NCBI GenBank assembly: GCA_964016885.1
Contig: OZ024743.1
Coordinates: 11,222,001-11,286,000, forward strand
Direction of reading: 5' to 3'
DNA length: 64,000 nucleotides
From: Eledone cirrhosa
Lineage: Eukaryota
Shown here: positions 8,204 through 53,895 of the stretch, one piece after another
Layout: every line of letters starts with the position of its first letter
Position numbering within the stretch: the stretch's first letter is position 1
The notes under the pieces: generated by a model
What the model was told of the DNA's origin: nothing
Database searches by the model: none
The model's input: only the letters and a program-made list of their open reading frames with translations
Translations under genes and position numbers: made by a program

Positions 8204-8440
8204 TTCTTTATTAGCCACAGGGGCACAAAAGAAGGGGACAAATACAAAGGGGGAAGTTTACATACAATAAAAACGTGTAAAATGTTATCACAGATGGAAT
8301 TTAAAAGTTAGTCGATTTTCCCCAATAGAGGGAGACAGTTTATATGGGTAACACATACCCCCGAAAAAAAATGTGCAACCCTCATCTCCAGGAGTACGAA
8401 GAGCTTGTACTCCTTTCCTCTCCTCCTCCTTTTCCTCAAC

Positions 8441-11400
8441 CTACAGGCTGATATAGAGAGAAGGCCCATTCACTCGGGCCATTCTCGCCACTTTCACCCA
8501 CCTTTCATAAAACTTGCTGGGGTACAGCACCTCTCTCTCCATCCTGATTCTTCTTCCAAAGTGGTATTTGAAAAAAAGAATCAGTTGTTGGCCGGAGAGA
8601 AAGGTGTCTGACCTCAGCCCTTTCAACCTTGTCCACCATACAACCTCTTTCGCCATAGCTATCACACAAAGGAAAACCGCCTCTCCTTCGTTTTTGAAGG
8701 AGGGTGGCGGTTTGATCATGACAATGGACTCGGTGGTCAACTGGATTGGTCCCACCCGCGACAATAGTCGTTCTACATAGCCCCACAGGTCAGTGACGCC
8801 CGGGCAGTGTATGAATGCGTGCGCGACGGTTTCTTCGTCTCGCACGCACCTCGGACAGATCTTTTTTGCAGGGTCCCTGCCCGGGCGCCCATGTTTGTAG
8901 AGCTTGTCTCGAACTGGTAGAGCTCCTCGGTAGCACTGCCAGGCCAGGGACTTTTGGAAGTTGTCCATCGGTCTCGGGCGGAAGGTCCTACCGAACAGAC
9001 TGGCCAGTTCATCTTCCTCCACGCCTAGAGTTTCACCGAGCGCGTCGTCGCACTTGCTGCGGACCAACCCTCTATAGAATGACGAAGTGGAGTCTCCACT
9101 GATCGCCGGGTCCGCCTGCCAGAGGGCTGTGAGCGCCTGAGCACATTCGATGTGCCAGTCGCCCATTTTCCTCGGTCTCTGCTTGACCCAGGACTGCAGC
9201 TCGGTCAGCGAGACGAGTCGTGGGAAGGCTCGCCTCACGAACGGGGCCCACACCGGTTGTCCGGTGAGGAATACGTAGAGATGCCGCAGCCTGAGCGCGT
9301 GTTTGCGCATCGTCAACCACGGCATCCCCAGCCCTCCGTTAGAAGGGTGTTGGCAGCAGATGGATCTTCTTACCAAAGAAGCCCGCCTCTTCCAAAGGAA
9401 TCGGAAGAGGGCGCGCTCCATTTTGGCGAGCGTTTTGGCTGGACAAGGCACGACGGTCAAGCGGTAGTAGATGGCGGACGCTATAAAAGTGTTCGCCACC
9501 TCCGCTCGACCTTTCAAGGATAGTTTGCACTCGGCCCACTTCTGGGTGAGTGCAAACACCTTGGCCGTCACTTCGTTCCAGTTCTTCTCCACCTGGAGGT
9601 CCGGACCAAACCAGACCCCGAGCAGCTTTACCGGTCCTTCCGTCCAGCGTCCGACGACGCCATCGGAAGGCATCGGTCTGCCTCTCCACGATCCGAGTTG
9701 CAAACCGATGGACTTGTCCCCGTTCAGCTTCGCTCCTGTGAGACTTTCGTATTCCTTTAGTAAGGTGCCGACTTCCTCGATTTGCGAGGCGCTCGACACC
9801 ATTACTGTCACGTCGTCGGCGTAGGCCGACGCCGCTTTCCGCAGTACCGGTTCCAGAGGGATGCCCTGCAATAGCTCCAGCTTCCGCAGTAGTGGCTCGA
9901 GAGTCAGTACGTACAGAAGGGAGGAGAGAGGGCATCCCTGTCGAATGGATCGCGTAATATGGAACGGCTCCGAGAGGTAACCGTTCACCTTGACCCTTGA
10001 GCAGATGTTGCTGTTGTGCATTGCAGCAATCCAGCCCCTGAACACGGGTCCGAAGCCTGCCGCCTCGAGCACCGCATCCAGGTAACGATGGTCAACCCTA
10101 TCGAAAGCCTTAGACTGATCCAAGTTGATCAGGGCCCCACCGAAGCCGGGTTTACACCCTACCCTCTCTATGATGTATCGCATGAGGTGGAGGTTGTCGT
10201 GTATGGACCTGGTCGGGATCGCGCATGTCTGCGCTTCTCCCACCAGGTTCTCGACGACAAGCGCCAGCCTCTTTGCCAACACTTTGGCCAAAATCTGTAA
10301 CTCTGTGTTTAGCAGAGTTATGGGCCGGAAGTTGCCTATGTCATCCCCCTTATTCTCGTCCTTCCTGATTAGTGTGACCACGCCCCCGGTTACAGAACTG
10401 GGAATTCTCCCGTTCTGTTGCCAGTTGCAGTAGACCGCTTCCAGGAGACCGGAGAATAAGTCCGGCATTGCTACGTAAAATTCGTAGGGTAGACCGTCGA
10501 GACCTGGAGATTTGCGTTTGCCGCATTGGCTCAGCGCGTCCCCTATCTCAGTGGCTGAAATCGGCTTTTCGCAGAACTTCGCCTCACTGTCCGAGAGTCG
10601 CGGTAGGCCGTCGAGGTATGGACCGAAATCCATAGCCTCTCCCGGTGCGCCGCTCCCCCCGAACAGCCGAGCAAAGTGCCGCTGAAAAGCCGCACACATC
10701 TGCTTCGGCTCACGTATCACGCGTCCGTTTTGGTCCTTCAAAGACCGAATCGTGGACTTGTTGCCACTTTTTGCCTCCGTCACTCGGGCCCAGCTAACAG
10801 CTTTGGCTACCTCGTTTCCCAGAGCACGTATTTTGCTTCTGACAACGCAGCCTTCGTGCTTTGCGTCGAAGAACTGGTCCAAGGCCGTTCTCGTTGCTAG
10901 CACGCTGGCTACGTTGCCACTTCTAATTGCCTCTTCTACTTTATCTACCAGTTCCTTCTCGGTTCTATTTCTATCTAACGCTAATTCTTTACTAAAAACT
11001 ATCGAGTCTAATCTAACTGCCCTCTTGAGAGAGTACCACCATCTGTTGTTGACAATGGCCCCTGTCAAGTGCTGTTTAACTAAAGTGCTAATCCGTCTAC
11101 TGTAGGCTTTGCTTGTCGGTAACGACAAGTTCAGCTTCCAGTAGCCGGGTCCTTGTCTATGGGTTCTATCAAGGTTGGCCATGCAGGTCACTAGTTTGTG
11201 ATCTGAATAGGCAACCATGAACATTTGTGGACAGCTTAACATGTCCCTATCCTTATTTCTAACTAGAACCCTATCTAGGTACGATCTAGATGTTCCGCTA
11301 CGATTACTCCACGTCCACAGTGGCGCAGTCGGAAAATCTAGTCGATATCTATCGGCCAGGTCAAATCGGTCGATTAACTGTTTGAGGCTGTTACACCCCC

Positions 11401-11878
11401 CTTTTTCGGGACATGCTCCCACATAGTCCCAACGTGCATCTAGGATTCCATTCCAGTCCCCCACTAAAAGCAAGGAGCGGGACGTTCCCAGAAAAGTCTC
11501 TAGACGTTTGAAGAAGTCTGGCCGCGGTGTCCCGGATGGGGCATATGCGGCCACCAGCCTGAAGGCTCCACCTTCACTACCGTCAACGTCTAGGACCACC
11601 AGTCGACCCTCCGGGTCCAGATGTACCGTCTGTGTTACGAGGCCCAGGTGTTTCCGCAGCAAAACGGCAACTCCGCCCCCACCCCCCGGTTGACAGAGAG
11701 ATGCGTAGATCTCAAAGTCATCGAAGATGGGGGCCAGCTGTCGCTCGCCGTGGATCCTGGACTCGCAAATGGCTACCACATCCAAACTGTGCGACCTGAG
11801 GTCGTTTAAGAGTTTGCCCTGTTTCCAGGGCATCCCCAGGCCGCGTACGTTCACACATCCAACTCTTATATTGACTAT
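8441..11878 (-). CDS. ORF2: AP endonuclease, reverse transcriptase and C-terminal zinc finger. No AUG; the homologous start position is ATA.
   Basis: NVRGL, GDWN, SYLDR, YSDH (APE); FRPITLLN, DQSKAFDRV, QGCPLS, YADD (RT); CPRC..ETVAHAFIHC. The frame stays open upstream of the tracked GTG to ACC AAC ATA GTC, matching ACC AAC ATG GCT in copy 2. Confidence 0.92.
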   Translation of the reverse strand: MVNIRVGCVNVRGLGMPWKQGKLLNDLRSHSLDVVAICESRIHGERQLAPIFDDFEIYASLCQPGGGGGVAVLLRKHLGLVTQTVHLDPEGRLVVLDVDGSEGGAFRLVAAYAPSGTPRPDFFKRLETFLGTSRSLLLVGDWNGILDARWDYVGACPEKGGCNSLKQLIDRFDLADRYRLDFPTAPLWTWSNRSGTSRSYLDRVLVRNKDRDMLSCPQMFMVAYSDHKLVTCMANLDRTHRQGPGYWKLNLSLPTSKAYSRRISTLVKQHLTGAIVNNRWWYSLKRAVRLDSIVFSKELALDRNRTEKELVDKVEEAIRSGNVASVLATRTALDQFFDAKHEGCVVRSKIRALGNEVAKAVSWARVTEAKSGNKSTIRSLKDQNGRVIREPKQMCAAFQRHFARLFGGSGAPGEAMDFGPYLDGLPRLSDSEAKFCEKPISATEIGDALSQCGKRKSPGLDGLPYEFYVAMPDLFSGLLEAVYCNWQQNGRIPSSVTGGVVTLIRKDENKGDDIGNFRPITLLNTELQILAKVLAKRLALVVENLVGEAQTCAIPTRSIHDNLHLMRYIIERVGCKPGFGGALINLDQSKAFDRVDHRYLDAVLEAAGFGPVFRGWIAAMHNSNICSRVKVNGYLSEPFHITRSIRQGCPLSSLLYVLTLEPLLRKLELLQGIPLEPVLRKAASAYADDVTVMVSSASQIEEVGTLLKEYESLTGAKLNGDKSIGLQLGSWRGRPMPSDGVVGRWTEGPVKLLGVWFGPDLQVEKNWNEVTAKVFALTQKWAECKLSLKGRAEVANTFIASAIYYRLTVVPCPAKTLAKMERALFRFLWKRRASLVRRSICCQHPSNGGLGMPWLTMRKHALRLRHLYVFLTGQPVWAPFVRRAFPRLVSLTELQSWVKQRPRKMGDWHIECAQALTALWQADPAISGDSTSSFYRGLVRSKCDDALGETLGVEEDELASLFGRTFRPRPMDNFQKSLAWQCYRGALPVRDKLYKHGRPGRDPAKKICPRCVRDEETVAHAFIHCPGVTDLWGYVERLLSRVGPIQLTTESIVMIKPPPSFKNEGEAVFLCVIAMAKEVVWWTRLKGLRSDTFLSGQQLILFFKYHFGRRIRMEREVLYPSKFYERWVKVARMARVNGPSLYISL

Positions 11879-13824
11879 GTTGGTGCTGAAAAGTTAAAAG
11901 AGGAAAAGAGATCACTCACCCTTCGCCTCCTGGGGACCAGGCCGCACGATTTCCATGGGGGTGTTGGAGGGGTTGTCTGGATGGGTGGTGGTTTCCGGCG
12001 GGGTGGGGACGCAGATGTTTGGTGGGGTGGGGTCTGGTGGGATGGGGGTGTCTGGGTGGGGAGGCATTTGAGAAGGACGCGGTTGAGTGGTTTCACGCAG
12101 GAATTCCCCACATCCTTCTCAAATGTTTCTTTTAGGGACCTATAAGTTTGTATAGGGACCCTAATCAGTTTTAGGTTCAGTTTTTTGCTATTTTTTATAG
12201 AGTGGGCGAAAGTTTTCCCTTCGGTGAAAACCGAAGGGTCGTTCGTGATGGTCTCCATTAGTGTTTTGTTTTCAGTGTTTATGTAAGTGTAAGTGTAATT
12301 TTCTTGTGTTGTGTTTGTTTTTGTCTGTAGTTCTTGTGTGTGCTTTCGTTTTGTTGTAGGTATTTTGTTTTCAGGAGGTGGGGGTTTTGTTTGTGATATT
12401 TTTGTTGTTTGTGTTGGTGGTTGTATGTTTGTGGTAGTGTTTGCTGGTTTTTTGCTTTTGTGATGTCTTTTCTTTCTTTTCGAGCGATGGGGTTCTCCCT
12501 CGTCTTCACTGGGTGATGGCGAGATAGCCTCATCTGTTGTATCGTCTGTGTGATTGGGGAGGGGTATGTCTTGGGGAGCTGTTGTGTCTGTATGTGATTT
12601 TGCAGTGGTTTTAGGTGGAGTGGGTTTGGGTGGGACTGTGTTTGTTGTGGTTATTTTTGTGTGTTGGTGTTGTTGTTGTGGTGGTGTTGGTGGTTGTGTT
12701 GTTTTGATGGGTGTCGGCAGAAGAGCCTTTTTTTGGTTCATTAGTTTAGGACAGGAAGCCCTCAGGTGACCCCTGCTAAAGCAATGGTAACATGAAGGCC
12801 GCCTATCCTCAACCGAAAGGTTTATGTAGGTAAGTCCGTCCAGGAGTACACGCTGTGGGATCATAGCTATTCGCTCTGGGCTCATTTGCACCAGAACTTC
12901 AATGCTAGTCCCATTGAATACATCTCTGGGGGACTTGCCTACTGACAGTATTCTGTCTTCATCAAAATTGATGAAGCCGCACAGTATCCACCATATGTTC
13001 ACCTTTGGTGTGACACTTGTGATTCTGATCTTTTGTGTCCTTTTTCCCATGTATGTAGGGAAAAAGGTGTACAGGTTGGATACAATTGGCGACACAGAGT
13101 AATTTTGGGCCGTCAATTGATCCTTCATCAGTACCGAAATACTCCCAAAAAGTTTGCTTCTTTGAATGAATGCAATATCATTCATTGAATCTTTGAAAAC
13201 CAGTTCAATATCTTTCTGTGACAATTGGACTGGTTTTCGGCTAGAATTGGAAACTGTCCTAAAAACTATCGTTTTGAAAGCAGTTTCCTTGCGAATTTCT
13301 ACCGGAGAATTGATGCTGAAAGCACCATTTTTTTCGAAGGTGACATATCTCTTAGCGTCCTTTAAAAGGTGTTCAGCATTTGTTATGTCGAGATATATCA
13401 ATTGTTCTTTCTTTTGAACTTTCTCCGCAAAGGAGATTTTTGGTTTCTTTGTGGAATCCGTATTGGTGGTGTTGTCATTATTGTTGTTATTCTTGTTGTT
13501 ATTCTTGTTGTCACCGATGTTGGTATCATCCGTATTTTCCTTGGTGTTGTTGTTGTCTTTGATGCTGGTGTTATTGGCGTTGTCTTTATTTTTTTCTTTG
13601 TTGTTGTTATCATTGTTGCTTTTATCATCATTATTGGTTTTGCTGTTATTTTTGTTGTCATTGAGCTGTTTGGTGTCATTTGTGTTGTTTGGATGTGAAT
13701 TCGTTTTTTTATTTTCATTTTGTCTTTCCATCTCTATAGTATCTAGTGAAGAAGACGTTGTTGACTGCGAGCTTTGTAGTCTTACCGCCTCTCCACCACC
13801 ATTATCGTTGGACGCAGCGTTCAT
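11875..13824 (-). CDS. ORF1 gag-like nucleic-acid-binding protein, 649 aa
   Basis: CCHC knuckle CYHCFSRGHLRASC, Asn-rich N-terminus, Pro/Thr-rich C-terminal half. It is homologous to ORF1 of the other two full-length copies. Confidence 0.88.
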   Translation of the reverse strand: MNAASNDNGGGEAVRLQSSQSTTSSSLDTIEMERQNENKKTNSHPNNTNDTKQLNDNKNNSKTNNDDKSNNDNNNKEKNKDNANNTSIKDNNNTKENTDDTNIGDNKNNNKNNNNNDNTTNTDSTKKPKISFAEKVQKKEQLIYLDITNAEHLLKDAKRYVTFEKNGAFSINSPVEIRKETAFKTIVFRTVSNSSRKPVQLSQKDIELVFKDSMNDIAFIQRSKLFGSISVLMKDQLTAQNYSVSPIVSNLYTFFPTYMGKRTQKIRITSVTPKVNIWWILCGFINFDEDRILSVGKSPRDVFNGTSIEVLVQMSPERIAMIPQRVLLDGLTYINLSVEDRRPSCYHCFSRGHLRASCPKLMNQKKALLPTPIKTTQPPTPPQQQHQHTKITTTNTVPPKPTPPKTTAKSHTDTTAPQDIPLPNHTDDTTDEAISPSPSEDEGEPHRSKRKKRHHKSKKPANTTTNIQPPTQTTKISQTKPPPPENKIPTTKRKHTQELQTKTNTTQENYTYTYINTENKTLMETITNDPSVFTEGKTFAHSIKNSKKLNLKLIRVPIQTYRSLKETFEKDVGNSCVKPLNRVLLKCLPTQTPPSHQTPPHQTSASPPRRKPPPIQTTPPTPPWKSCGLVPRRRRVSDLFSSFNFSAPT

Positions 13825-14041
13825 AACGTAATCAAAATTTTACAATATTTTTTCCAAGATTCGATGGAGAAAAATTTTTTAAATGGATATTCCGCCCCTG
13901 AAGGGGCGAAAATGAGTTGACCCACCACCTGAAGGTCCAGACGGGTGGTCAAGTTACACAATGATATAAAATTGAACTAAAAACTCACGTTTTTTCCTTA
14001 CATAAATTAACGGAAACTTCTCCGCGAAGTGACACACGACT

Positions 14042-14048
14042 GATAGAG

Positions 14049-14117
<69 letters not shown>

Positions 14118-14120
14118 GAC

Positions 14121-14184
<64 letters not shown>
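14042..14184. repeat. (GATA)n between Tx1 copies 1 and 2
   Basis: Directly visible. Confidence 0.98.
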
Positions 14185-14185: not shown

Positions 14186-14449
14186 TGTTTCTTTTATTTG
14201 CCACCAGGGCATCAAAAGTGGGACAAGTACAATGGGGGGAGTTTACAAAACAAGGCGTCCTCAATAAGGAGGAGGCAATAATAATATATAAAAATAAAAT
14301 AAAATATTACAAAAAATAAAATTTATAACAAAGTCCTCAATAGAGAGGAGGCGCCTTGGGGGGTCGCACACACCCCCGAAAAAAGTGTGCAACCCTTCTC
14401 CTCAGGAGCACAGAGAAGGGGTGCTCCCTTGGTCTTTCATCTTCTTCAC

Positions 14450-17400
14450 CTATAGTCTGATGTAGAGTGAAGGCCCATTCACACGGGTCATTCTCGCCAC
14501 TTTCACCCATCTTTCATAGAAACGGCTGGGGTGCAGCACCTCTCTCTCCATCCTGATCCTTCTTCCGAAATGATATCGGAAGAAACGGACCAGTTGTTGG
14601 CCAGAGAGAAAGGTGTCTGACCTCAGTCCTTTCAGACGCGTCCACCATACAACCTCTTTCGCCATGGCTATTACGCACAGAAACACCGCCTCTCCTTCGT
14701 TTTTGAAGAGGGGAGGCGGCTTGATCGTTACAATAGACTCGGTGGTCAACCGGATCGGTCCCACCCTTGACAGCAGTTGTTCGACATAGTCCCACAAATC
14801 GGCAATGCCCGAGCAGTGTACCAATGCGTGTGCAACGGTTTCCTCGTCGCACACGCATCTGGGACAGATCTTTTTCGATGGGTCCCTACCCGGGCGCCCG
14901 TGTCTGTATAGCCTTTCTCGAACGGGCAGAGCCCTTCTGTAGCATTGCCAGGTCAGGGACCTCTGGAAGTTATCCATGAGTCCCGGGCTGAATGTCCTAC
15001 CGAACAGGTTGTCCAGTTCGTCTTCCTCCATGCCTAGGGCTTCTCCGAGGGCGTCGTCGCACCTGCTAACCACCAGCCCTCTATAGAATGACGAGGTGGA
15101 TTCTCCACCGACAGCCTGTCCGCCTGCCAGAGAGCCGTGAGCGCCTGGGCACACTCAGTGTGCCAGGCGCCCAGTTTTCTCGGTCTTTGCTTGACCCAGG
15201 ATTGCAGCTCGATGAGTGAGACGAGTCTGGGGAAGGCTCGCCTCAGAAACGGGGCCCACACTGGTTGACCGGAGAGGAATACCTGAAGGTGCCGTAGCCT
15301 TAATGCGTGTTTACGTATCATTAGCCACGGCATCCCCAGCCCTCCTTTCGAAGGGTGTTGACAGCAGATGGATCTCCTCACCATAGGAGCCCGCTTTTTC
15401 CAAAGGAATTGGAAGAGTGCGCGCTCCATTTTGGCGAGCGTTTCCCTTGGGCAAGGCACAACGGTCAGGCGGTAGTAGATGACGGACGCTATATAAGTGT
15501 TCGCCACCTCCGCCCGACCTTTCAGGGACAGTTTGCACTCGGCCCACTTCTGGGTCAGTGAAAACACCCTGTTCGTCACCTCACCCCAGTTCTTCTCCAC
15601 CTGGAGGTCTGGTCCGAACCAGACCCCGAGCAACTTCACCGGGCCCTCCGTCCAGCGCCCGACGACGCCATCGGAGGGCATCGATCTGCCCCTCCACGTG
15701 CCGAGTTGCAGACCGATCGACTTGTCCCGGTTCAGCTTAGCCCCTGTAAACCTTTCGTACTCCTCCAGTAAGGTGCCGATCGCCCCGATTTCCGAGGCCG
15801 TCGACACCATTACTGTTACGTCATCGGCGTAGGCTGACACCGCTTTCCGCAATCCCGGTTCCAACGGGATGCCCTGCAACAACTCCAACTTCCGCAGCAG
15901 TGGCTCTAGAGTCATTACATACAGAAGGGAGTAGAGAGGGCACCCCTGTCGGATGGACCGCGCGATTTCGAACGGCTCCGAGAGGTAGCCGTTCACCTTG
16001 ACCCTAGAGCAGATGCGGCTGCTGTGCATGGCATTGATCCAGCCCCTGAAAACGGGTCCGAAGCCTGCCGCCGCTAGCACCGGATACAGGTAACCATGGT
16101 CAACCCTATCGAATGCCTTAGATTGATCCAAGTTGATCAGGGCCCCACCAAAGCCGGGTTCGTTCCCAACTCTCTCTATGATGTATCGCATGAGGTGGAG
16201 GTTATCGTGGATGGACCTGGACGGGATAGCACATGTCTGCTCATCTCCCACCAGGTTGCCCACGACAAGCGCCAACCTCTTTGCTAGCACCTTGGCCAAA
16301 ATCTGTAACTCTGTATTTAGCAGAGTTATGGGCCTGAAATTATTTATATCGTCCCCCTTGTTCTCGTCCTTCCTCACTAGCGTGACTACGCCCTTGGTCA
16401 CAGCACAGGGAATTCTCCCGTTCTGTTGCCAGTTGCAGTAGACCGCCTCGAGGAGATCGGGGAACAAGTTCGGCATAGCTAGATATAGTTCGTATGGAAG
16501 ACCATCGAGACCCGGGGGTTTGCGTTTGCCGCATTAGCTCAGCACGTCCTCTATCTCAGCGGCTGAAATCGGCTCCTCGCAGGACTTCGCCTCCCTGTCC
16601 GAGAGACGCGGCAGGCCGTCGAGGTATGGACCGAAGTCCACGTCCCCAACTGGCCCCCCGCCCCCGCCCCCTCCGAACAATCCGGCAAAGTGCTTTTGAA
16701 AAGCCTCGCACATCTGCTTAGGTTCAAGGATCACCCGTCCATCCTGGTCTCGAAAAGACCGGATAGTGGATCTGCTCCCTCTTTTGGCTTCTGTCACGCG
16801 GGCCCAGCTAACAGCTTTGGTCCCCTCGTTTCCCAGAGCACGTATTTTGCTTCGGACGATGCAGCCTTCGTGTTTCGCGTCGAAGAACTGGCCCAGGGCC
16901 GTTCTCGACGCTAGCACTCTAGCCACGTGGCCGCTTCTAATTGCCTCTTCTACACTATCTACCAACTCCCTTTCCTTCCTATTTCTATTGGAGGCTAACT
17001 CCTTACTAAATTCTATAGAGACTACTCTAATCTCTCTTTTGAGAGGTCCCCACCACCTGCTGTTGACGATGGCGCCCGTCAACCGCTCCCTAACTAAGGT
17101 GCTAATCCGGTCCCTGTAAGCCTTACTTGCCGGTAAGGACAAGTTGAGCTTCCAGTAACCGGGTCCCTGTCTATGAGTTCTGTCAAGGTTGATCATGCAG
17201 GTCACTAACTTGTGGTCTGAATAGCCAACCATGCGCATTTTTGGACAACTTAAAAAGTCCTTATCCTTAATTCTAACTAAGAACCTATCTAGGTACGACC
17301 TAGATGATCCGCTACGATTTGCCCAAGTCCAGGTTGGTGCAGTCGGAAAATCTAGTCGATATCTATCGGCGAGGTCAAATCGACCGATTAACCCTTTGAG

Positions 17401-17892
17401 GCTATTACACCCCTCTCTATCGGGACAGGCCCCTACGTAGTCCCAGCGTGCATCTAGGATACCATTCCAGTCCCCCACTAATAGCAAGGAGCGGGACGTC
17501 CCTAGAAAAGTCTCCAGACGATGGAAGAAGTCCGGCCGCATTGACCCGAAAGGGCCGTAGGCGGCTACCAACCTAAACGCTCCGCCTTTACCACTGCCAA
17601 GGTCCAGAACCACTAGTCGACCCTCCGGGTCCAAATGTACCATCTGTGTTGCGAGACCCAGATATTTTTGCAGCAGAACGACAACTCCACCCCCACCTCC
17701 GGGCTGACAGAGAGATGCGTGCATCTCAAAGTCATCAAAGGTAGGGGCCAGCTGTCGCACGTTGCTGATCCGAGCCTCACAAATAACCATCACATCTATA
17801 CGTTGTGACCTGAGGGCATTTAGAAGCATTGCTTGCTTCCAAGTTGAGCCCAGGCCACGCGCATTTAAACAGCCTACTCTTAGCATAGCCAT
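14450..17892 (-). pseudogene. ORF2 (APE-RT-ZnF) with one nonsense codon (16534-16536) and one frameshift (about 15115)
   Basis: ORF pieces 16534-17916, 15034-16476 and 14450-15154 align end to end with copy 1 ORF2. AGC TAA TGC replaces AGC CAA TGC. Confidence 0.88.
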
Positions 17893-19698
17893 GTTGGTGG
17901 TGAAGAGAAAAGGCACTTACCTCTCTGCGTCCCGGGTATCGGGCTGCACAATTTCCATTAGGGTGGGGGTGGGTTGTTGGGTGGGGTGGTGGTTTGTGGA
18001 AGTGTAGGGGCATCAGTGTGTTGTGTGGTTGGGGAGCTTGGAGTTGTGTGGGTGTTTGGGGAGGGGGTGGGGTAGTTTTTTTTAGGAGGACGCGGTTAAT
18101 GGGCCCGACGCAGGGGGGACCCACGTCCTCTTTAAAATTGTTTTTTAAAGTTTTATAGGTGTCCTGTGGGGCCTTAATCATTTTGAGGTGGGGGAAATCC
18201 CCTGCCTGGGTGAAGTTAGGCCCTTGTGTTTTTATTAGATTGTTGTTGTACACAATGTTTAACAGTTTTTTTGTTTCTTGTGTTTATGTATGTGTATGCA
18301 TGTTTTTGTTTTTGTGTGGTGTTTTTTGTTTGCTGTTGTTGTGAGCTCTTTTGTGTTGGTGTCAGTGTTATGTTTTGGGGAGGGGTTGTTTTCATTTGTG
18401 TGTCTGAGGTGTGTTTTCTTTTTTTTCTTTTGATTGTGTGGAAGTGCTCCTCCTCGTCTGACGACGAACTAGGGTCATCTTCCGCGTTGAAGGGGAGGGG
18501 TATATTTTCGGGTTGTGTTTGCGGTGCCGGGTGTTTTGGAAATTGTTTTTGTTTTTTGAGTGGAGGGGATGGGTTGGACATTGTTTTGTTTTGGTTTGAG
18601 CTGTGGTGGTTGTTTTTGTAGTGGTAGTTGTGGTGATTGTGTTGGTTGTGCAGTTGTTGGTGGTGTAGGCAGGATTGGGGTTTTCTTATTAAATTGGGGA
18701 CAGACAGCCCTCAGGTGACCTCTGGTTCCGCAGAGGTAACACGAGGGCCGTCTACCCTCAACGGTAATGTTGATGAAGGTTAGATCATCCAGTATGACGC
18801 GTTCAGGGATCTGGGCGATCCTTTCGGGCCTCATTTGAACTACAAGTTCGAGGCTCGTTCCACTGAACGCGTCACCCGATGCCTTTCCCATGGACACCAG
18901 CATGTCATCCTCCAGGTCCAGGAAACCTGTCAAAACCCACCATATGTCCATAATCGGCAGGATGGTGTGGATTTTTATTTTTTGTGTTCTTCTACCCATG
19001 TACGTAGGGTAGAAGGTGTATGCGGTGGATGTGATTGGTTTGATGGACAGTTTCACTGCTGTGTCCCTGTCCTTCATGAGAATGGATAGACTCCCGTAGA
19101 GTCTATCCTTCTGAATGAAGGTGGTGTCCTTCATGACGTCTTTTAAAACCAGCTCTATCTCACTCTGTGATGGTTGAGCTGGTTTTTTACTTTTATTTGA
19201 GATTGTCCTAAACATGACCGTGTTTAGGAGTCTCTGGCTTTTTAGTTCCGGGGGGGGGGGGGGGGAATGGATTGTGAATGAACCATTTTCTCCGTACACT
19301 ATATATTTTTTCGCATCTGCCAGTAGCTCCTTCGCTTTGGTTATATCTACTGGCAGATAGTCGAGGGTTTTCCTTGTCGTCTCGGCGAAGGAGAAATTTT
19401 GTTTGTTTGTGTTGTTGTCGTTGGTGGTGTTGTTGTTATCATTGTTGTTGTTGTCACAGTTATTGGTCTTGTTGTTGTTGTTATTGTTATTGGTGTTGTT
19501 TTCGTCCGTCGCATTGTTGTTGTTGGTGCCGCTGGTTGTTGCCATGGCAACGTCAAGTTGTCGGTTAACAGGTGGAGAGAATTCTTCCTCTGGCTGACCT
19601 TTCTTCTTGACCTCTGCTACTGTGACAGTGGCAGGGGGAAGCTGTAAGTTTATCTTCCCCTTTCCTCCTTTGAATTTTGGTGAAGAAGCTTCGGCCAT
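17777..19698 (-). pseudogene. ORF1 with two frameshifts (about 18590 and 18250)
   Basis: Pieces 18475-19728, 18216-18581 and 17777-18253 match copy 1 ORF1 (CYLCGTRGHLRAVC, YTYINT, PINRVLLK). Assembly indel errors cannot be excluded. Confidence 0.82.
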
Positions 19699-19920
19699 TT
19701 TAAAAAATATTGACTTTTCAACAAGCAAAAAACTTCTTTTTTTTTTTGTTTAACTATTTCGCCTAAAGGCGTAGAATATTTTGAGAGACTGACCAGATCA
19801 AAGTTTGACCTGGCAGTCCCTCTACAAAATGGTACAAAAATGAAAGTTCACAGTTTACAATTTCCGGATGAATTTAAACAAAACTTACCGAGCGAGCTCA
19901 GCACATGTGTCCATCGTAAA

Positions 19921-19921
19921 G

Positions 19922-27130: not shown

Positions 27131-27768
27131 AGACAAGCGCCATAGGTGAAAATGTAAACTCGTGACATGGAAAACATCACATGTCGTTTATGCAATTAAA
27201 ATATATCTAAGAAAAATTACAACTGCACAAATTTCCTTCCACTAAACTATGGCGTCTTTGTGCAAATTTAGAAAAGAACCAAAATTATTCTTCTATATTT
27301 ATGAGTGAAACCTTTTACGTCACTTTTGCTTCGAAAGTCTACGAAAAAGACATAAACCCCACCACATTTTCTTGTGGAGAAATCAATATAGGTATTCTGT
27401 TTTAATTAGACAAGGCAACAAGAGCACATAAAACAATAGTTAAGACGGCTAAGTAATAAACATATTTCCCATATGGTAATTAGCTTTGGCGACGAGCTCC
27501 AGAATGTAATAAGGCGCCAAAAGAAAAACGCTACTTTAACTAGCCGAAATCAAATACGTAAAGAAACATTTTGTTGCTTTCTTTTTTTCCTTCATTCATT
27601 CTTTATTTATTTTTTATTTATTTATTTCTTATACATTTATTAGTGAGAGTATGGTCTCCTTAAACTGTGTTTGTTTCCATTTTAATTCTAGTAACGTTAA
27701 CAGAACAGACAACAAATAATGCTAATAACAATAATGATGATAATGATAATAATAATAATAATAATAAT

Positions 27769-30298
27769 GATTTCATTTATTGGCCACAAGGGCCGACATA
27801 TAGGGGACAATACAAAAGACTGGGACAGTGGGGTTTTACAGAAAAATCGAGTAAACAATATGAATCACAATAACAAAGTAACAATAACAAAGTAACAATA
27901 AAGTAACAAGAAAATTACAAGAAGAAAAAATTCCCCAATAGGGGGGATGACCACCTAGGGTTCGCTCAGGTACCCCACCAGTCCTGAACGACCCGACGCT
28001 TCGAGAGCACCCTGGAAGGGCACCCCTCTCCTCTTCAAATTTACCTACCTACAGCCGCATGACCAGAGTAGGCCCACTCACACGAGCCATTCTCGCCACA
28101 TTCACCCACCTTTCAGCAAATGTACTGGGGGGCAGCACTTCTCTCTCCACCCTCACCTTCCTTTCCAAGTGAAACTTGAAAAAGTTGATGAGGGATTGGC
28201 CGAAGAGAAAAGTGTCTGTCTTCAGTCCTTTCAACCTCGTCCACCATACAAGCTCTTTCGCTACTGCCACAAGACAGAAGAAAATTGCCTGCCCTTCCTG
28301 GCCAAAAGAAGGCAGCGGGTCGATCTTCACTATGGACTCGGCCGATAGCCGGATCCGTTCTACACGCGACAACAGCTGTTCAACATAACTCCACAAGTCA
28401 GTAATGCACGGACACTGAACGAGTGCGTGCAGAACGGTTTCGTCGCTCTGCGCGCATCTCGGGCAGGTCCGTCTGACAGCACTTCCGTGCCTGTAGAGTT
28501 TATCTCATACCGGCAGTGCCCTCCGGTAGCACTGCCAAGCGAGGGATTAGTGGAAATTATCCATCGTCCCCGGCTCGAAAGTCCTCGGGTACAGACTGGT
28601 TAGTTCGACTTCGTTGACTCCCAGAGCCTCTCCGAGTGCGTCGTCGCACTTGCCCACCACTAATCCTCTATAGAACTCGAGAGTGGAAGTTCCACTGACC
28701 GCATTGCCCGCCTGGTAGAGGGCAGTGAGTGCCTGGCAACATTCCAGATGCCAGTCACCCAGTCTCGGTCTCTTCTTGACCCAGGACTGCAACTCAGTCA
28801 AAGAAACAAGCTGCGGAAAGGCCCGTCTGACAAACGGCGACCACACCTGTTCACCGTTTAGGCAGAATATCTGGAGATGCCGCAGCCTCAGCGCGTGCCT
28901 GCGCATCATTAGCCACGGCATGCCCAGCCCTCCCCGTAGAGGGTGCTGGCAGCAGATGGACCGCCTCACCAGCGGAACCTGACCCCTCCACAAGAATTTG
29001 AAGAGGAGCCGCTCCAAGATGGCGAGGCGCGAGCGGGGGCAAGGGACGACAGTCAGACGGTAGTAGATGACGGACGCGATGTACGCGTTCGCCACCTCCG
29101 CCCGACCTTTCAGTGATAGCTTCATCCCAGCCCATTTCTGAGTGAGACTGACTACCCTGCCCGTCACCTCGTCCCAATTCTTATCCACCTGGAGGTCTGG
29201 CCCGAACCAAACCCCTAGCAACTTTACCGGTCCGTCCGTCCAGCGCCTAACGACGCTGTTGGACGGCATGGACTTGCCTCTTTAGGTGCCGAGTTGCAAG
29301 CCTACTGACTTTTCCGGGTTAAGTTTTGCTCCCGTCAACCTTTCATATTCCTCCAATAAGGTGCCGACCACCTCGATTTCTGAGGTGTTCGACACCATCA
29401 CGGTGATGTCGTCCGCATAAGCCGACACAGCCTTTCCGCGTCCCGGTTCGTGCGGATGCCCTGCAACAGCTCCAGCTTCCGCAGTAAAGGCTCGAGAGTC
29501 AATACGTACAGAAGGGAGGAGAGAGGGCACCCTTGACGGACCGATCGGGAGACCTGAAACGGTTCTGAGAGGTGGCCATTAATTTTGACCATCGAGCAGG
29601 TGCCGCTGTGCATTGCAGCGATCTTCTGAAGACGGGGCCGAAGCCAGCCGCCTTGATGACAGCCTCCAGGTACCGATGGTCGACCCTATCGAATGCTTTC
29701 GATTGATCTAAATTGATCAGAGCCCCACCGAAGCCAGGTTTACACCCTACCCTCTCTATGATGTATCGCAAGTTTGCGCCTCCCCAACCAAATCCCCGAC
29801 GACAAGCGCCAACCTCTTCGCTAACACCCTGGCCAAAATCTTAAACTCTGTGTTGAGCAGAGTTATGGGCCTGAAATTGTCTAATGCGTCCCTCTTGTTC
29901 TCGTCTTTCCTTATCAGCGTCACTACGCCCCGGCTCACAGAACTGGGAATACTCCCGTTTGTGCTGCAAGTTGCAGTAGAGGGCTTCGAGGAGATTGGAG
30001 AACAAGTCTGGCATATTTACGTAAAGCTCATAGGGCAGACCATCCAAACCGGGTGACTTGCGCCTCATGCAGCCGACAAGGGCATCCTGAATCTCGGCTG
30101 AAGTAATTGGCCTTTCGCAGCGCCCAGCGTCAGCCGTCGAGAGTTGCGGCAAGCCATCGAAGTAGGGACTTTCCCCTTCACGGGGCAAAGTCTAAGGGCT
30201 TATATCTCTTACACAACAAGAAATATTTAACAACAAATAATTTTAACAGACAAATAAAGCGACTTACTGGGAGCGAGCAAAATACGTGCGCTTAGACC
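27769..30298 (-). mobile_element. Internally deleted Tx1-like element, copy 3, with (AAT)n on both sides
   Basis: 3' UTR and RT/ZnF pieces (28049-30166, several frameshifts) are joined directly to about 130 nt resembling the family 5' UTR (GCTCGCTC..GTAAGT, hairpin). ORF1 and the endonuclease are missing. Confidence 0.85.
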
Positions 30299-46219: not shown

Positions 46220-46262
<43 letters not shown>

Positions 46263-46521
46263 TTTCTTTATTAACCACAAGGGTTTACATAAAGTAGACA
46301 TTAAGGACAGTGCAGGACAATGCAGGACGGTACAAATGGGCATTTCTGCGTGTAAAAAACAAAAACAGAGGATGTAACAAAAATAACAATGAAAATAACA
46401 ATGAAAAATTCCCCAATAGGGGGGAGACTTCGGAGGGACATTTGTGGAGAAAGCCCAGTAAAAAGCCACAATGACCCTGACCACCAAGGCAAGTGCCCTC
46501 TCCCAGTTTTCCACCTTTAGT

Positions 46522-49500
46522 TTACAGATATATACTCAGAGTCGGCCCATTCACTCGGGCCATTCTTGCTTCTCTCACCCATCTTTCAACAAAATGCTGG
46601 GAAGAGAGCACTTCCCTCTCTACTCTGATTTTCCTTTTCAAATGAAATTTGAAAAAGTCAATCAGAGCATCACCGAAGAGGTAAGTGCTCGTCTTCAGCC
46701 CTTTCAAACGTGTCCACCATACTATCTCTTTCGCCATGGCCACCAGACAGATAAAAACTGCCTGCCCTTCCCGGCTAAAGGAGGAGGGCGGGGCAATCCT
46801 CACGATAGACTCAGATGATAGCTGGATCCGTCCTAAACGCGACAGCAGGTGTTCGACATAAACCCACAAGTCAGCAATTTTCGGACACTGGACGAGTGCG
46901 TGCAGGACGGTTTCGTCGCCCTGCGCGCATCTCGGACATGCCCGGCTGACGGCACCTCCATGCCTGTAGAGTTTATCCCGAACTGGCAAGGCTCCTCGGT
47001 AGCACTGCCAGGCCAGAGATTTCTGGAAGTTGTCCATAGGCCCTGGCCCGAAAGTTCTTCCGAAGAGATTGGCTAGTTGATTTTCGTCGACGCCTAGAGT
47101 TTCCCCAAGTACGTCGTCGCTCTTCCCCTCCACTAATCCTCTATAGAACGCCGAGGTGGAGTTTCCACCGATCACATTGCCCGATTGGTCGAGGGCTGTG
47201 AGCGCCTGAAGACATTCCAGTCTCCAGGCGCTCCCTCTCGGTCTTCGCTTGACCCAGGACTGCAGCTCCGTCAAGGAAACGAGCTGGGGAAAAACGCGTC
47301 TAGCAAACGGCGACCACACCTGATCACCGTCGAGGAAGAGGTGGAGATGTCGTAGCCTGAGCGCGTGCCTGCGCATCATCAGCCACGGCATGCCCAGCCC
47401 TCCACGTAGCGGGTGTTGACAACAGATGGACCGCCTGACCATCGGAGCACGTCCCTTCCACAAAAAGCGAAAGAGCAAACGCTCCAGCGCAGTCAGGCGA
47501 GGCTTAGGACAAGGTACGACGGTTAGGCGGTAGCAGATGACAGACGCGATGTACGCGTTAGCCACCTCCGCTCGACCTTTCAGGGATAGCTTCCTCTCCG
47601 CCCATTTCTGGGTGAGAGAAGCCACCCTGCTCGTCACCTCGTCCCAGTTTTTGTCCGTCTGGAGGTCCGGACCGAACCAGACCCCTAGCAATTTAACCGG
47701 TCCGTCCGTCCAGCGCCCGACGACGCTGTTGGACGGCATGGACCTGCCTCTCCAGGTGCCGAGCTGCAGGCCCACTGACTTTTCCTGGTTGATCATTGCT
47801 CCTGTCACCGCTTCGTATTCTCTTAGTGTAGTGCCGATCGCCTCGATGTGTTTGGCGTTCGACACCACTACGGTGACATCGTCCGCATATGCTGACACGG
47901 ATCTTCCGCATCCTAGTTCGCACGGGACTCCCCTCAACGTCTCCAGTTTGTGCAGTAATGGCTCGAGAGTCAATACGTACAAGAGGGACGAGAGGGGACA
48001 TCCTTGGCGGACCGAGCGCATGACGTTGAACGGTTCCGACAGGTGACCGTTCACTCTCACCACAGAGCAGATGTCGCTGTGCATGGCAGCGATCCAGCCT
48101 CTGAAGACGGGCCCAAAGCCAGCCGCCCTCAGGACTGCCGCTAGGTAACGATGGTCGACCCTATCGAAAGCTTTCGACTGATCTAAATTGATCAAGGACC
48201 CACCCGTGCCAGGTTCCCTAGCTACCCTCTCTACGATGTATCGCATGAGGTGGAGGTTGTCGTGGATGGATCTGTCGGGAATGGCGCATGTCTGCGCCTC
48301 TCCCACCAGACCACCAACGACAAGCGCCAACCTCTTTGCTAGCACCTTGGCCAAAATCTTAAACTCTGTGTTTAGCAGAGTTATGGGCCGGAAATTGTCT
48401 ATGTTATCCCCCTTGTTCGGATCCTTTCTCAGCAGTGCCACCGCTCCTCGGCTCACAGAACTGGGAATTCTCCCGTTCTGTTGCCAGTTGCAGTAGACGT
48501 CCGCTAAGAGGCCTCCGAACAAGTCTGGCATCTGTACGTAAAGTTCATAGGGCAGACCATCCAAACCAGGCGATTTACCCCTTGTGCAGCCAGTCATTGC
48601 CTCCCTTACTTCAGCGGCTGTTATCGGCTTTTCGCAACACTTCGCCTCAGTGGCCGAGAGCCGCGGCAGTCCGTCGAGGTAGACACTAAAGTCCATCCCT
48701 CTACCCGGCCCCCCGCTGCCCCCGAACAGCTGAGCGAAGTGTCGCTGAAAAGCTTCACACATTTGCCCGGGATCGAGTAGCATGCGCCCGTCGTGGTCCA
48801 CCAAAGACCGGATCGTGGCTTTGTTGCCACGACGCGCCTCCGCCACTCGGGCCCATTGAACGGCTTTCGTCCCCTCGTGTCTGAGAGCACGCACCCTAGC
48901 TCTGACAACGCAGCCTTCGTGCTTTGCATTGAAGAATTGGTCAAGGGCCAATTTCGCCGCAAGCACGTCGGTCGCAATGCCTTTGCTAAGCGCCTCGTCT
49001 AATTTTCTAACTAGTTCTCCCTCTGCTCTATTTTTCTCTATTGCTAAAGCCTTACTAAACCTAATCGATTCTATTCTAATCGCTCTTTTCAGAGCAAACC
49101 ACCACTTGTTGTTGACGATGGCCCCCGTCAACGCCCGCTTAACTAGTTCGCTAATCCGGTCTCTGTAGGCCTTGCGCGCTGGTAAGGACGCGTTTAGCTT
49201 CCAGTAGCCGGGTCCTTGTCTATGAAGCCTATCTAAGTCAAGCACACAGGTCACGAATTTGTGGTCCGTGTAGCTGACTATCTTGAATTGTGGACAGCCT
49301 ATGCTAGACCTATCTATTTCCCTACAAAATACTCTATCTAGATATGATCTGGATGACCCTATGCGGTTTGTCCAAGTCCACATTGGCACATTCGGGAAAT
49401 CCAATCGGTACCTGTCAGACAGTTCAAAACGCCTGAGCAGGTTGGTGAGGCTCTTGCACCCTCCACCCCTATCCGCTAATCCCACACAGTCCCAGCGTGC

Positions 49501-49941
49501 ATCTAAGATCCCGTTCCAGTCGCCCACTAACACTAAAGAGCGGGACGTTCCAAGAAAGGTCTCCAGACGCCGGAAGAAATCAGGCCGCCCTGCTCCTGTC
49601 GGGGCATAGACGGCCACTAGCCTGAAAGCTTGCCCGTCTCCGCTGGTCACGTCCAGCACCACCAGCTTACCCTCTGGGTCCAGGAAGATGGCCCATATGG
49701 CGAGATCCAAACCTCTCCGAAAAAGCACAGCAACTCCTCCACCCGATCCAGGACGGCTGGGAGATGCGTACACATCGTAGCCGCCGAAGATCGGTGCGAA
49801 GGCCCGTGCTTCGGAGATTCTGGTCTCGCTGATGGCCACTACATCTATGTTTAGTGACCTGAGGTCGTTGAGCAGGTGACCCTGCTTCCATGACGACCCC
49901 AAGCCACGCGCATTTATGCTGCCTATTCTGAGTGAGGTCAT
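46522..49941 (-). CDS. ORF2 APE-RT-zinc finger, 1139 aa, intact
   Basis: NARGL, SET, GDWN, YLDR, YTDH; QGCPLS, YADD; CPRC..ETVLHALVQC. Confidence 0.95.
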   Translation of the reverse strand: MTSLRIGSINARGLGSSWKQGHLLNDLRSLNIDVVAISETRISEARAFAPIFGGYDVYASPSRPGSGGGVAVLFRRGLDLAIWAIFLDPEGKLVVLDVTSGDGQAFRLVAVYAPTGAGRPDFFRRLETFLGTSRSLVLVGDWNGILDARWDCVGLADRGGGCKSLTNLLRRFELSDRYRLDFPNVPMWTWTNRIGSSRSYLDRVFCREIDRSSIGCPQFKIVSYTDHKFVTCVLDLDRLHRQGPGYWKLNASLPARKAYRDRISELVKRALTGAIVNNKWWFALKRAIRIESIRFSKALAIEKNRAEGELVRKLDEALSKGIATDVLAAKLALDQFFNAKHEGCVVRARVRALRHEGTKAVQWARVAEARRGNKATIRSLVDHDGRMLLDPGQMCEAFQRHFAQLFGGSGGPGRGMDFSVYLDGLPRLSATEAKCCEKPITAAEVREAMTGCTRGKSPGLDGLPYELYVQMPDLFGGLLADVYCNWQQNGRIPSSVSRGAVALLRKDPNKGDNIDNFRPITLLNTEFKILAKVLAKRLALVVGGLVGEAQTCAIPDRSIHDNLHLMRYIVERVAREPGTGGSLINLDQSKAFDRVDHRYLAAVLRAAGFGPVFRGWIAAMHSDICSVVRVNGHLSEPFNVMRSVRQGCPLSSLLYVLTLEPLLHKLETLRGVPCELGCGRSVSAYADDVTVVVSNAKHIEAIGTTLREYEAVTGAMINQEKSVGLQLGTWRGRSMPSNSVVGRWTDGPVKLLGVWFGPDLQTDKNWDEVTSRVASLTQKWAERKLSLKGRAEVANAYIASVICYRLTVVPCPKPRLTALERLLFRFLWKGRAPMVRRSICCQHPLRGGLGMPWLMMRRHALRLRHLHLFLDGDQVWSPFARRVFPQLVSLTELQSWVKRRPRGSAWRLECLQALTALDQSGNVIGGNSTSAFYRGLVEGKSDDVLGETLGVDENQLANLFGRTFGPGPMDNFQKSLAWQCYRGALPVRDKLYRHGGAVSRACPRCAQGDETVLHALVQCPKIADLWVYVEHLLSRLGRIQLSSESIVRIAPPSSFSREGQAVFICLVAMAKEIVWWTRLKGLKTSTYLFGDALIDFFKFHLKRKIRVEREVLSSQHFVERWVREARMARVNGPTLSIYL

Positions 49942-49976
49942 GTTTAAAATAGAGTGGAAAAGATGGGAAAGACCAC

Positions 49977-52073: not shown

Positions 52074-52305
52074 GTTGTTTTTTGTTTAAAATGAATATTG
52101 GGTTCAAAACCCCAATAACTGGTTATTTAGCCCCGAAGGGCCAAATAACGGACAGAAGGACCCCTCTCACGAGGAGGAGGGTGTCTTTATCAACAATTTG
52201 GTTCAAGTTTTAAACAATTTACAATTGTTTTAACGGTTAAAAATTACTATACCTTACAGAGCCGAGCCTCCGTCAACCATGGCATTCAATAATAATAATA
52301 ATAAT

Positions 52306-53307: not shown

Positions 53308-53895
53308 TAATATTCACTCACGAATACATGTTTTTTTTTTTAGTTTTATAGTATTTCGTTGTTCATCCAAAACCTGTTGTGCCTCACCACCACACACCTG
53401 AAATCTCCCAATCAGTTATTTATTTCATTGATTCCCCTGCTTTAAAATCAATATTTAAACGTCTACCATTCATTGTGATTTTAAGATCCACATAATTTAC
53501 TGGATCTCTCATTTTATTCATATAAACCCAACTGCAAAGCCAAAGATTCTGTCCATCTTAAATAATTGTTGGCATTAATATAATTATTAAATAACTGCCT
53601 AATATTAGGGGTGTTGATATTAATGTGACATGACAACAGTATGATATTTGTGGTAATATCAATAAAGTGATATAATGAGACTTTAATGTTAGAGGCGACG
53701 CATCATTCCTGATATAACAGCCATTGTGACGTTAAACTTGACAAAAGCATACAACGAAACCTATTATATTTTGATTATAAAAGGCGTTAACTGTGTCCAC
53801 ACCAATTATATCATCTTCAATAATCTCAGATAAGTTGCTGTTTGTATGAAGAGAATGTTCGAGTTATATACATATATATATATATATATACATGT

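What the first reader, a model, noticed from the sequence alone, without database searches (positions are those of the whole stretch)
11876..11922. Conserved 5' splice site plus pyrimidine tract at the ORF1/ORF2 junction of three diverged Tx1 elements
Seen, on the element sense strand: copy 1 AGG|GTGAGTGatctcttttcctcttttaacttttcagcaccaacATA (donor 11914-11919); copy 2 GAG|GTAAGTGccttttctcttcaccaccaacATG (17915-17920); copy 5 ACG|GTAAGTGgtctttcccatcttttccactctattttaaacATG (49975-49980). The surrounding ORF1 tails are not alignable at the DNA level. The motif falls in a different ORF1 codon phase in copy 5, where it contains the stop, so protein constraint does not explain it. Established: G|GTRAGT is the U1 snRNP consensus, and L1-group ORF2s are normally translated from an unspliced bicistronic RNA. 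Inference: the family has a selected U1 site immediately upstream of ORF2. It could serve splicing, suppress premature polyadenylation or tune ORF2 output. I do not know of this being described for Tx1 elements.
Basis: partly seen in the sequence, partly recalled or inferred. Interest (0 to 1): 0.82.

Follow-up and report, generated by a model that had tools for sequence, protein, structure and literature searches.

The report
Splice donor ending a LINE's ORF1
Three copies of a jumping gene here, and a very distant relative, carry their strongest splice-donor-like signal right at the end of their first gene, which likely lets the element cut out its second gene to make extra RNA-packaging protein, a trick known from other retrotransposons but untested in this class.

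Summary
The motif is real at all three stated positions and is the best-scoring sense-strand donor in each element (of 278, 282 and 313 GT sites). An outside test rescues the conclusion. A lineage at 41% ORF2 identity, with saturated silent sites, has AAG|GTAAGT 13 nt before ORF2 in 64 of 64 array units, after its ORF1 stop and without a pyrimidine tract. A third lineage lacks it. Both outside lineages also have a donor just after the ORF2 stop, a 3'UTR acceptor and two AATAAA; copies 1 and 2 have donor-acceptor pairs in the 5'UTR. So the donor is the conserved part, not the tract. Most likely it is an alternative donor that removes ORF2 to give an ORF1-only mRNA, as in Ty1/copia (about 0.4); U1 binding without splicing is the main rival. 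Only copy 5 of the five window copies has a strong 3'UTR acceptor. Use in RNA is untested. Not found in print in my searches.

The parts
11914..11919 (-). Copy 1 junction donor GTGAGT (AGG|GTGAGTG), 41 nt before the ORF2 start
   Evidence: top-scoring sense donor of 278 GT sites
11886..11911 (-). Copy 1 pyrimidine tract ending in TTTTCAG; acceptor-like, but the AG is not kept in copies 2 and 5
   Evidence: top acceptor score in copy 1
11875..13824 (-). Copy 1 ORF1 (CCHC knuckle); probable frameshift in the proline-rich tail
8441..11878 (-). Copy 1 ORF2 (endonuclease + reverse transcriptase), open, start codon reads ATA
13898..13988 (-). Copy 1 5'UTR donor GTGAGT to acceptor (Y)nCAG: 91-nt intron-like stretch
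   Evidence: predicted only
8204..14041 (-). Copy 1, full-length element between (TATC)n runs
17915..17920 (-). Copy 2 junction donor GTAAGT; its TAA (17919-17917) ends the MEIV frame of ORF1; ORF2 ATG at 17892
   Evidence: top-scoring sense donor of 282 GT sites
17897..17913 (-). Copy 2 pyrimidine tract, no AG before the ORF2 ATG
19822..19888 (-). Copy 2 5'UTR donor GTAAGT to acceptor (T)nGTAG: 67-nt intron-like stretch
   Evidence: predicted only
14186..19921 (-). Copy 2, full-length, with frameshifts in ORF1 and a stop and frameshift in ORF2; (TATC)n on both sides
49975..49980 (-). Copy 5 junction donor GTAAGT; its TAA (49979-49977) is the ORF1 stop; ORF2 ATG at 49941
   Evidence: top-scoring sense donor of 313 GT sites
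49947..49972 (-). Copy 5 pyrimidine tract, no AG before the ORF2 ATG
49977..52073 (-). Copy 5 ORF1, 698 aa, intact, CCHC knuckle
46522..49941 (-). Copy 5 ORF2, 1139 aa, intact: PF03372, PF00078, PF13966
46346..46368 (-). Copy 5 candidate 3'UTR acceptor (T)nACACGCAG|A, 177 nt after the ORF2 stop; would close a 3635-nt intron from 49980
   Evidence: top acceptor score in copy 5; not shared by copies 1-4; predicted only
46261..52260 (-). Copy 5, full-length intact element, ending AATAAAGAAATC then (ATT)n
27765..30170 (-). Copy 3, 5'-truncated, no junction
52295..53313 (-). Copy 4, 5'-truncated, directly upstream of copy 5, no junction

Best explanation
The motif is a conserved 5' splice-site consensus at the ORF1 stop of these LINEs, and it likely works as an alternative donor that removes ORF2 as a 3.6-3.7 kb intron to give an ORF1-only mRNA, while the unspliced RNA would remain the source of ORF2 protein and the template for retrotransposition. 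Shown: position, rank, recurrence in a saturated lineage, and the presence of 3'UTR acceptors in relatives. Inferred: U1 snRNP binds it; the acceptor used is the 3'UTR one; the spliced RNA supplies extra ORF1 protein; having no ORF2 protein in cis it is rarely copied back, so the 'intron' is not lost. The pyrimidine run is read as ordinary U-rich intron-start sequence (a recalled property of donors), dispensable where the spacer is short.
For: Top-ranked sense donor in 3 of 3 window elements, and first or second in 7 of 7 units of the distant lineage. GGTRAGT at the junction in 64 of 64 array units of a lineage with 41% ORF2 identity and four-fold divergence 0.71-0.73; there the ORF1 stop comes first (GAR TAA G|GTAAGT), so neither codons nor the stop explain it and splicing would leave ORF1 whole. 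GTRAGT sits at non-coding borders: 10 in 4234 nt against 4 in 26294 nt of coding sequence over five elements (regions chosen after seeing the data, elements related). In 9 of 9 relatives examined the 3'UTR reads donor (+17 to +43 after the ORF2 stop), acceptor (+185 to +278), AATAAA (+438 to +470), AATAAA (+692 to +730), across two lineages 48% alike in ORF2. The 3'UTR acceptor at +177 is the top acceptor of intact copy 5. Donor-acceptor pairs in the 5'UTRs of copies 1 and 2. Precedent: Arabidopsis EVD and Drosophila copia make a Gag-only RNA from a donor at the gag/pol border (PMC5580714, passages).
Against: No strong acceptor is shared by copies 1, 2 and 5 in ORF2 or the 3'UTR (96 shared AG columns, best mean score about 2); copies 1, 2 and 3 have no 3'UTR acceptor above the cut-off and copy 4 a weak one. 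One of the two outside lineages (L069) has no junction donor and a TAATG stop-start overlap instead, so the site is dispensable. In copies 2 and 5 splicing would delete the ORF1 stop and add a new tail (19 residues in copy 5), unlike in the outside lineage. Of three decayed relatives one keeps the donor, one has GATAAGT and one has a deletion there. No precisely spliced join was found in any fetched locus. LINE proteins act mainly in cis in human L1 (PMC5860796, Discussion), which lowers the value of ORF1 protein from a separate RNA. Splice scores rest on recalled metazoan frequencies, not on a model for this host.
Confidence: 0.4

Rival explanations
1. U1 binds the site but splicing is rare or irrelevant: the donors in the 5'UTR, the spacer and the 3'UTR would keep polymerase going, block early cleavage, or set export and RNA level, and sit in the only non-coding room available.
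For: No acceptor shared by the window copies; donors occur in all three non-coding parts; all intron-like stretches are kept in every array unit that covers them (57 of 58 by pattern, the miss shows the donor with a flanking change); U1 blocks early termination of unspliced EVD RNA (PMC5580714, passages); the conserved L1 5'UTR donor is seldom used (PMC5860796, Discussion).
Against: ORF2 holds 0 AATAAA/ATTAAA in 4 of 4 elements (0.7-1.9 expected from codon shuffles), so there is little downstream to suppress; the AATAAA of ORF1 lie upstream of the site; strong acceptors pair with the donors in relatives.
Confidence: 0.27
2. The letters serve translation or act at DNA level, not U1: stop-codon context and a re-initiation signal for ORF2, or a factor-binding site, that happens to look like a donor.
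For: In copies 2 and 5 the TAA of the motif is the ORF1 stop; in subfamily L032 the 3'UTR donor's TAA is the ORF2 stop; the lineage without the donor has TAATG; the L1 5'UTR donor is kept for a RUNX3 site (PMC5860796, Discussion).
Against: In the distant lineage the donor follows the stop; its distance to the ORF2 start varies (13, 28, 39, 41 nt); the only variation in the hexamer is A/G at +3, as the donor consensus allows; the same hexamer recurs in both UTRs, where ribosomes do not re-initiate.
Confidence: 0.13
3. Chance plus shared descent: the window copies inherited the letters neutrally around a stop codon and the distant lineage matches by luck.
For: Window copies are only 0.30-0.46 apart at silent sites; the distant units are one lineage (0-0.14 apart, 85 of 103 four-fold sites invariant), so 64 of 64 counts as one observation; one of two outside lineages is negative.
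Against: Chance for the outside hit is about 0.005-0.008; top rank in each element; further donors at both UTRs of several lineages.
Confidence: 0.1
4. Other splice products: a short intron that fuses ORF1 to ORF2, an ORF2-only RNA from the 5'UTR donor using the tract as acceptor, or back-splicing to the 5'UTR acceptor to give an ORF1 circle.
For: In copies 2 and 5 the first AG in ORF2 (42 and 53 nt on) is in the phase that would join the frames; copy 1 has TTTTCAG 9 nt before ORF2; ORF1 is bounded by an acceptor and a donor in copies 1 and 2.
Against: The distant lineage has its stop before the donor, so no fusion; 34-55 nt is very short for an intron (recalled); copies 2 and 5 have no AG between tract and ATG; copy 5 has no 5'UTR acceptor.
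Confidence: 0.1

Closest known systems
Ty1/copia gag-pol splicing: Arabidopsis EVD and Drosophila copia (PMC5580714; passages seen)
   Same: A conserved U1 site near the border of the structural and the catalytic gene; spliced RNA gives structural protein only, unspliced RNA is the genome; in copia the intron is about 3 kb and ends near the 3' end, as proposed here.
   Different: LTR elements with one polyprotein; splicing and U1 action shown by experiment. Here a two-ORF non-LTR element, donor at the stop codon, no poly(A) hexamer in ORF2, nothing shown in RNA.
Human L1 splice donor G98U99 and SpIREs (PMC5860796; abstract and first part of Discussion seen)
   Same: A LINE keeps a donor over long times; a donor near the 5' end, as in copies 1 and 2.
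   Different: That donor is in the 5'UTR, is seldom used, harms the element when used and is explained by a RUNX3 site; the text I read names none at the ORF1/ORF2 junction.
Vertebrate L1 inter-ORF regions (PMC5381506; passages seen)
   Same: T-rich spacers before ORF2 occur in fish L1.
   Different: Discussed as IRES or re-initiation; the stem 'splic' does not occur in the main text.
Target-specific Tx1 elements Kibi and Koshi (as described in PMC4494074; passages seen)
   Same: Two-ORF elements inserted in microsatellites.
   Different: Targets there are (TC)n and (TTC)n in fish; here (TATC)n and (ATT)n; no splice signal mentioned in the passages seen.
ORF1-derived host exons such as Lyosin (10.1101/2024.04.25.591049; passages seen)
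   Same: An ORF1 coding exon ending in a 5' splice site.
   Different: Single domesticated L1 copies spliced to host exons; no claim, in the passages seen, that the donor came with the element.

Membership tests
Tx1 clade of non-LTR retrotransposons | ORF2 with APE endonuclease, reverse transcriptase and C-terminal zinc motif | tested here: met
   PF03372, PF00078, PF13966 in copy 5
Tx1 clade of non-LTR retrotransposons | Separate ORF1, here with a CCHC knuckle | tested here: met
   ORFs show C-x2-C-x4-H-x4-C; no Pfam hit at 1e-3; Atlas look-alikes are CCHC / ZCCHC3-type RNA-binding proteins (0.89-0.94, a lead)
Tx1 clade of non-LTR retrotransposons | Target preference, often microsatellites | tested here: met
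   5 of 5 copies end at (TATC)n or (ATT)n; copies 1 and 2 have (TATC)n on both sides
Tx1 clade of non-LTR retrotransposons | RT phylogeny groups with named Tx1 families | not testable with these tools
No named Tx1 reference was held; the tree has unnamed or 'hypothetical' rows only.
Major-spliceosome 5' splice site | Match to the consensus MAG|GTRAGT (recalled) | tested here: met
Major-spliceosome 5' splice site | A conserved partner acceptor downstream | tested here: inconclusive
   Present in 9 of 9 relatives and in copy 5, weak in copy 4, absent in copies 1-3
Major-spliceosome 5' splice site | Reads spliced at this GT | tested here: inconclusive
   No usable RNA run (see Tried and rejected)
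Major-spliceosome 5' splice site | U1 snRNP dependence | not testable with these tools
   needs mutation and compensatory U1
Copia/EVD-type subgenomic splicing system | Donor at the border of structural and catalytic genes | tested here: met
Copia/EVD-type subgenomic splicing system | LTR element with a single gag-pol frame | tested here: not met
   two-ORF LINE: it may work like the system but is not a member
Copia/EVD-type subgenomic splicing system | Short intron coupled to termination inside the catalytic gene (EVD form) | tested here: not met
   no poly(A) hexamer in ORF2 and no shared near acceptor; only the long-intron copia form fits

The most novel reading that the evidence does not exclude
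A whole LINE clade sorts its RNA into pools with the spliceosome: donors placed at the ORF1 and ORF2 stop codons splice to a shared 3'UTR acceptor and end at a proximal poly(A) signal, giving ORF1-only and bicistronic mRNAs that lack the conserved 3' tail, while U1 held on the unspliced RNA carries transcription to the distal signal and makes the only template for retrotransposition. This would explain how a LINE keeps introns for very long times.
Probability: 0.25. Interest if true: 0.82.

Novelty: new variant of a known kind. Interest (0 to 1): 0.6.

Why it matters
LINEs are taken to be intronless elements read from one bicistronic RNA, and how they set the ratio of ORF1 to ORF2 protein is still debated (re-initiation or IRES; PMC5381506). 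A donor kept at the ORF1 stop across about 1.8 changes per site of ORF2 would show that LINEs too use the spliceosome for this, as copia elements do, and it is testable with existing cephalopod RNA data. It would also predict that such insertions readily donate ORF1 exons to host genes.

Tried and rejected
RNA: no RNA holder listed (7 runs, 0 on record as RNA). Four runs laid on copy 5, all contigs: the one guessed to be RNA has no cover at the junction; none of the 15 joints shown, of 2064, starts at the donor; one contig of X5 (kind unknown) bridges the junction unspliced. None of this bears on use of the donor. No own genome is held, so the genome-wide logo could not be made. More lineages: viral contigs gave none with endonuclease profiles and three RT-only fragments without a junction (not used); metagenome contigs gave two bacterial exonuclease-like hits; L068 likewise; plasmids and phages no match; 243 and 127 further genomes added no new lineage. 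ORF1 homologue searches found nothing, so C-termini and fused models could not be checked; longer proteins were not searched. Rfam: 0 matches in 8 sources. Folding: small hairpins over the donor, z -0.4 to -1.0, not significant. Invariance within the array lineage is uninformative. Rejected: the tract as a conserved acceptor; ORF1-ORF2 fusion as the general rule; a UGGGA-type re-initiation motif (recalled), since that position reads TGGGA, TTGGA, TCGGA or TGAGA. Earlier findings of the scan: none.
Full report
What is there. The window holds five copies of a two-ORF LINE on the - strand: three full-length (8204-14041, 14186-19921, 46261-52260) and two 5'-truncated. ORF2 has endonuclease, RT and zinc-motif domains; ORF1 has a CCHC knuckle. 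Copies end in an AATAAA and a (TATC)n or (ATT)n run. No genome is held for the window; near protein relatives are named from Octopus sinensis and Argonauta hians, so the host is probably an octopod. L1-Tx1 is listed with 13 recently active families in O. vulgaris (PMC13282606, passages; its supplement was listed but not read). The label Tx1 fits the anatomy but was not tested against named references.

The observation. With a rough donor matrix from recalled frequencies, each is the best sense-strand donor of its element, of 278, 282 and 313 GT sites; antisense sites score as high in copies 1 and 5, so the rank holds for the sense strand only. The chance of GGTRAGT in the 50 nt before ORF2 is 0.002-0.008. 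Copies 1 and 2 align into the ORF1 tail and share a reading MEIV[RQ]P. In that frame copy 2 ends AGG TAA, as copy 5 ends CGG TAA: the stop lies inside the motif in the same phase, and copy 1 is one base off. Silent sites differ by only 0.30-0.46 among the three, so descent plus a stop codon could carry part of the pattern.

Outside test. A profile of the endonuclease found 66 loci among genome contigs: 64 are units of head-to-tail arrays of a related LINE that lie in one metagenome-assembled genome and look like animal DNA in that bin, one is a decayed relative in another such genome, one is a false hit. The array ORF2 is 41% identical to copy 5 and four-fold sites are saturated (0.71-0.73). 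All 64 of 64 units have GGTRAGT at the junction, reading GAR TAA G|GTAAGT then 7 letters then the ORF2 ATG. The stop comes before the donor and there is no pyrimidine tract. These units are close kin (0-0.14 at silent sites) and count as one observation. A third lineage from the same bin (L069; ORF2 48% to the arrays, 41% to copy 5) has no junction donor and a TAATG overlap. In a quick tree the window copies, both outside lineages and one more protein form one clade (SH-aLRT 100), with L069 sister to the array lineage (97) (the careful tree did not finish). So the donor is either old and lost once or gained twice. One hit in two outside lineages has a chance of roughly 0.01-0.02. Of three decayed relatives covering the junction, one keeps the donor.

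Wider anatomy. Donors recur at the other non-coding borders. Copies 1 and 2 have GTRAGT 53 and 33 nt from the 5' end with an acceptor 91 and 67 nt on; copy 5 has no such pair. In 8 array subfamily representatives and L069 (9 of 9) the 3'UTR reads donor, acceptor, AATAAA, AATAAA at +17 to +43, +185 to +278, +438 to +470 and +692 to +730 from the ORF2 stop; 57 of 58 covered units match donor and acceptor patterns, and the miss still shows the donor. A short tail motif before the last AATAAA looks alike in all lineages (by eye). Over five elements GTRAGT occurs 10 times in 4234 non-coding nt and 4 times in 26294 coding nt (borders approximate, regions chosen afterwards, elements related). In the window only copy 5 has a strong 3'UTR acceptor (46346); copy 4 has a weak one, copies 1-3 none, and no strong AG is shared along ORF2. 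ORF2 has no AATAAA/ATTAAA in 4 of 4 elements, against 0.7-1.9 expected, which is not a significant lack in any one.

How it likely works. Shown: a donor consensus at the ORF1 stop in two deep lineages. Inferred: U1 binds it, and part of the RNA is spliced from it to the 3'UTR, dropping ORF2 (3635 nt in copy 5; 3732-3758 nt in the arrays). The product would code ORF1 whole (arrays) or with a short new tail (copy 5). It would make no ORF2 protein in cis and, in the arrays, may end at the proximal AATAAA without the 3' tail, so it would rarely be copied back; no spliced join was found in the fetched loci. I give this 0.40, U1 binding without splicing 0.27, a translation or DNA-level signal 0.13, chance with descent 0.10 and other splice products 0.10; together about 0.75 that U1 recognition is what is selected. 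No RNA evidence could be had (see Tried and rejected).

Comparison. It would work like Ty1/copia subgenomic splicing, where a U1 site at the gag/pol border both allows a Gag-only RNA and protects the unspliced RNA (PMC5580714, passages), but it is not a member: this is a two-ORF LINE, and the short-intron EVD form does not fit. Human L1 keeps a 5'UTR donor that is seldom used (PMC5860796, abstract and first part of the Discussion). A survey of vertebrate L1 spacers discusses IRES and re-initiation, not splicing (PMC5381506, passages). Searches and passages of PMC4494074, PMC9341512 and 10.1101/2024.04.25.591049 showed no report of a donor at the ORF1/ORF2 junction of Tx1 or other LINEs. The library lacks most subscription papers and Repbase reports, and supplements were not read (those of bioRxiv are closed), so a prior note cannot be excluded. 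PMC3894237 (first third) did not bear on the question; PMC3735527 was seen only in a listing.

Verdict. New variant of a known kind; interest 0.6, held down by the lack of RNA data, one negative lineage and the missing acceptor in most window copies.

Noticed in passing
window 13898-13988 and 19822-19888 (-): Short intron-like stretches (91 and 67 nt, GTRAGT to pyrimidine tract and YAG) in the 5'UTRs of copies 1 and 2; a similar, longer one in the 5'UTR of L015.
   Followed up: partly
L003:7985-8225 and 8420-8670; L069:7073-7220 and 7465-7770: 3'UTR of both outside lineages reads donor, acceptor, proximal AATAAA, distal AATAAA: a retained 3'UTR intron-like unit in a LINE.
   Followed up: partly
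L003-L064, L066, L067, L069 (G001): At least 17 contigs of a bacterial genome bin are head-to-tail arrays of mostly intact 6.4-7.2 kb LINE units with near-identical ORF2 but different 5' ends; they look like animal DNA in the bin. G002:C16 also holds decayed copies.
   Followed up: partly
window 8204-19921, 46261-53313: Elements sit in tandem at microsatellites: (TATC)n for copies 1 and 2, (ATT)n for copies 3-5, suggesting two target specificities in one small clade.
   Followed up: no
window 8441, 14450, 28049, 52582 (-): ORF2 stop reads YTRTAG|G in copies 1-4 (AG|GT in 1-3), followed by a purine-rich run; weak as donor or acceptor except TAG|GTAGGT in copy 3.
   Followed up: partly
window 8212-8385 (-): Copy 1 3'UTR has a long stretch without AG that holds GACTAAC, a branch-point-like word, ending at the terminal AATAAAG.
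   Followed up: no
window 38736-43205 and 44655-45826: A 46-bp satellite of 99 copies and a 123-bp (about 60-bp subunit) array of 9.5 copies that gives an open frame of 437 codons on +.
   Followed up: no
window 55288-55809, 57785-58184, 44355-44566, 26885-27130, 46007-46235: Copies of a short interspersed repeat, one with internal tandem duplications.
   Followed up: no
P0002: An Octopus sinensis 'tectonic-3-like' gene model includes 61 residues of this endonuclease (62% identical) as an apparent exon.
   Followed up: no
L073-L075, 5700-7400: Three large virus genomes (186-211 kb) carry a stand-alone 490-500 aa RT fragment related to this ORF2 (26-29% identical), without endonuclease or ORF1.
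   Followed up: no
window ORF1 vs ORF2 of all full copies: Sharp change of base make-up at the junction: ORF1 strongly A/C-rich on the sense strand, ORF2 52-59% GC.
   Followed up: no
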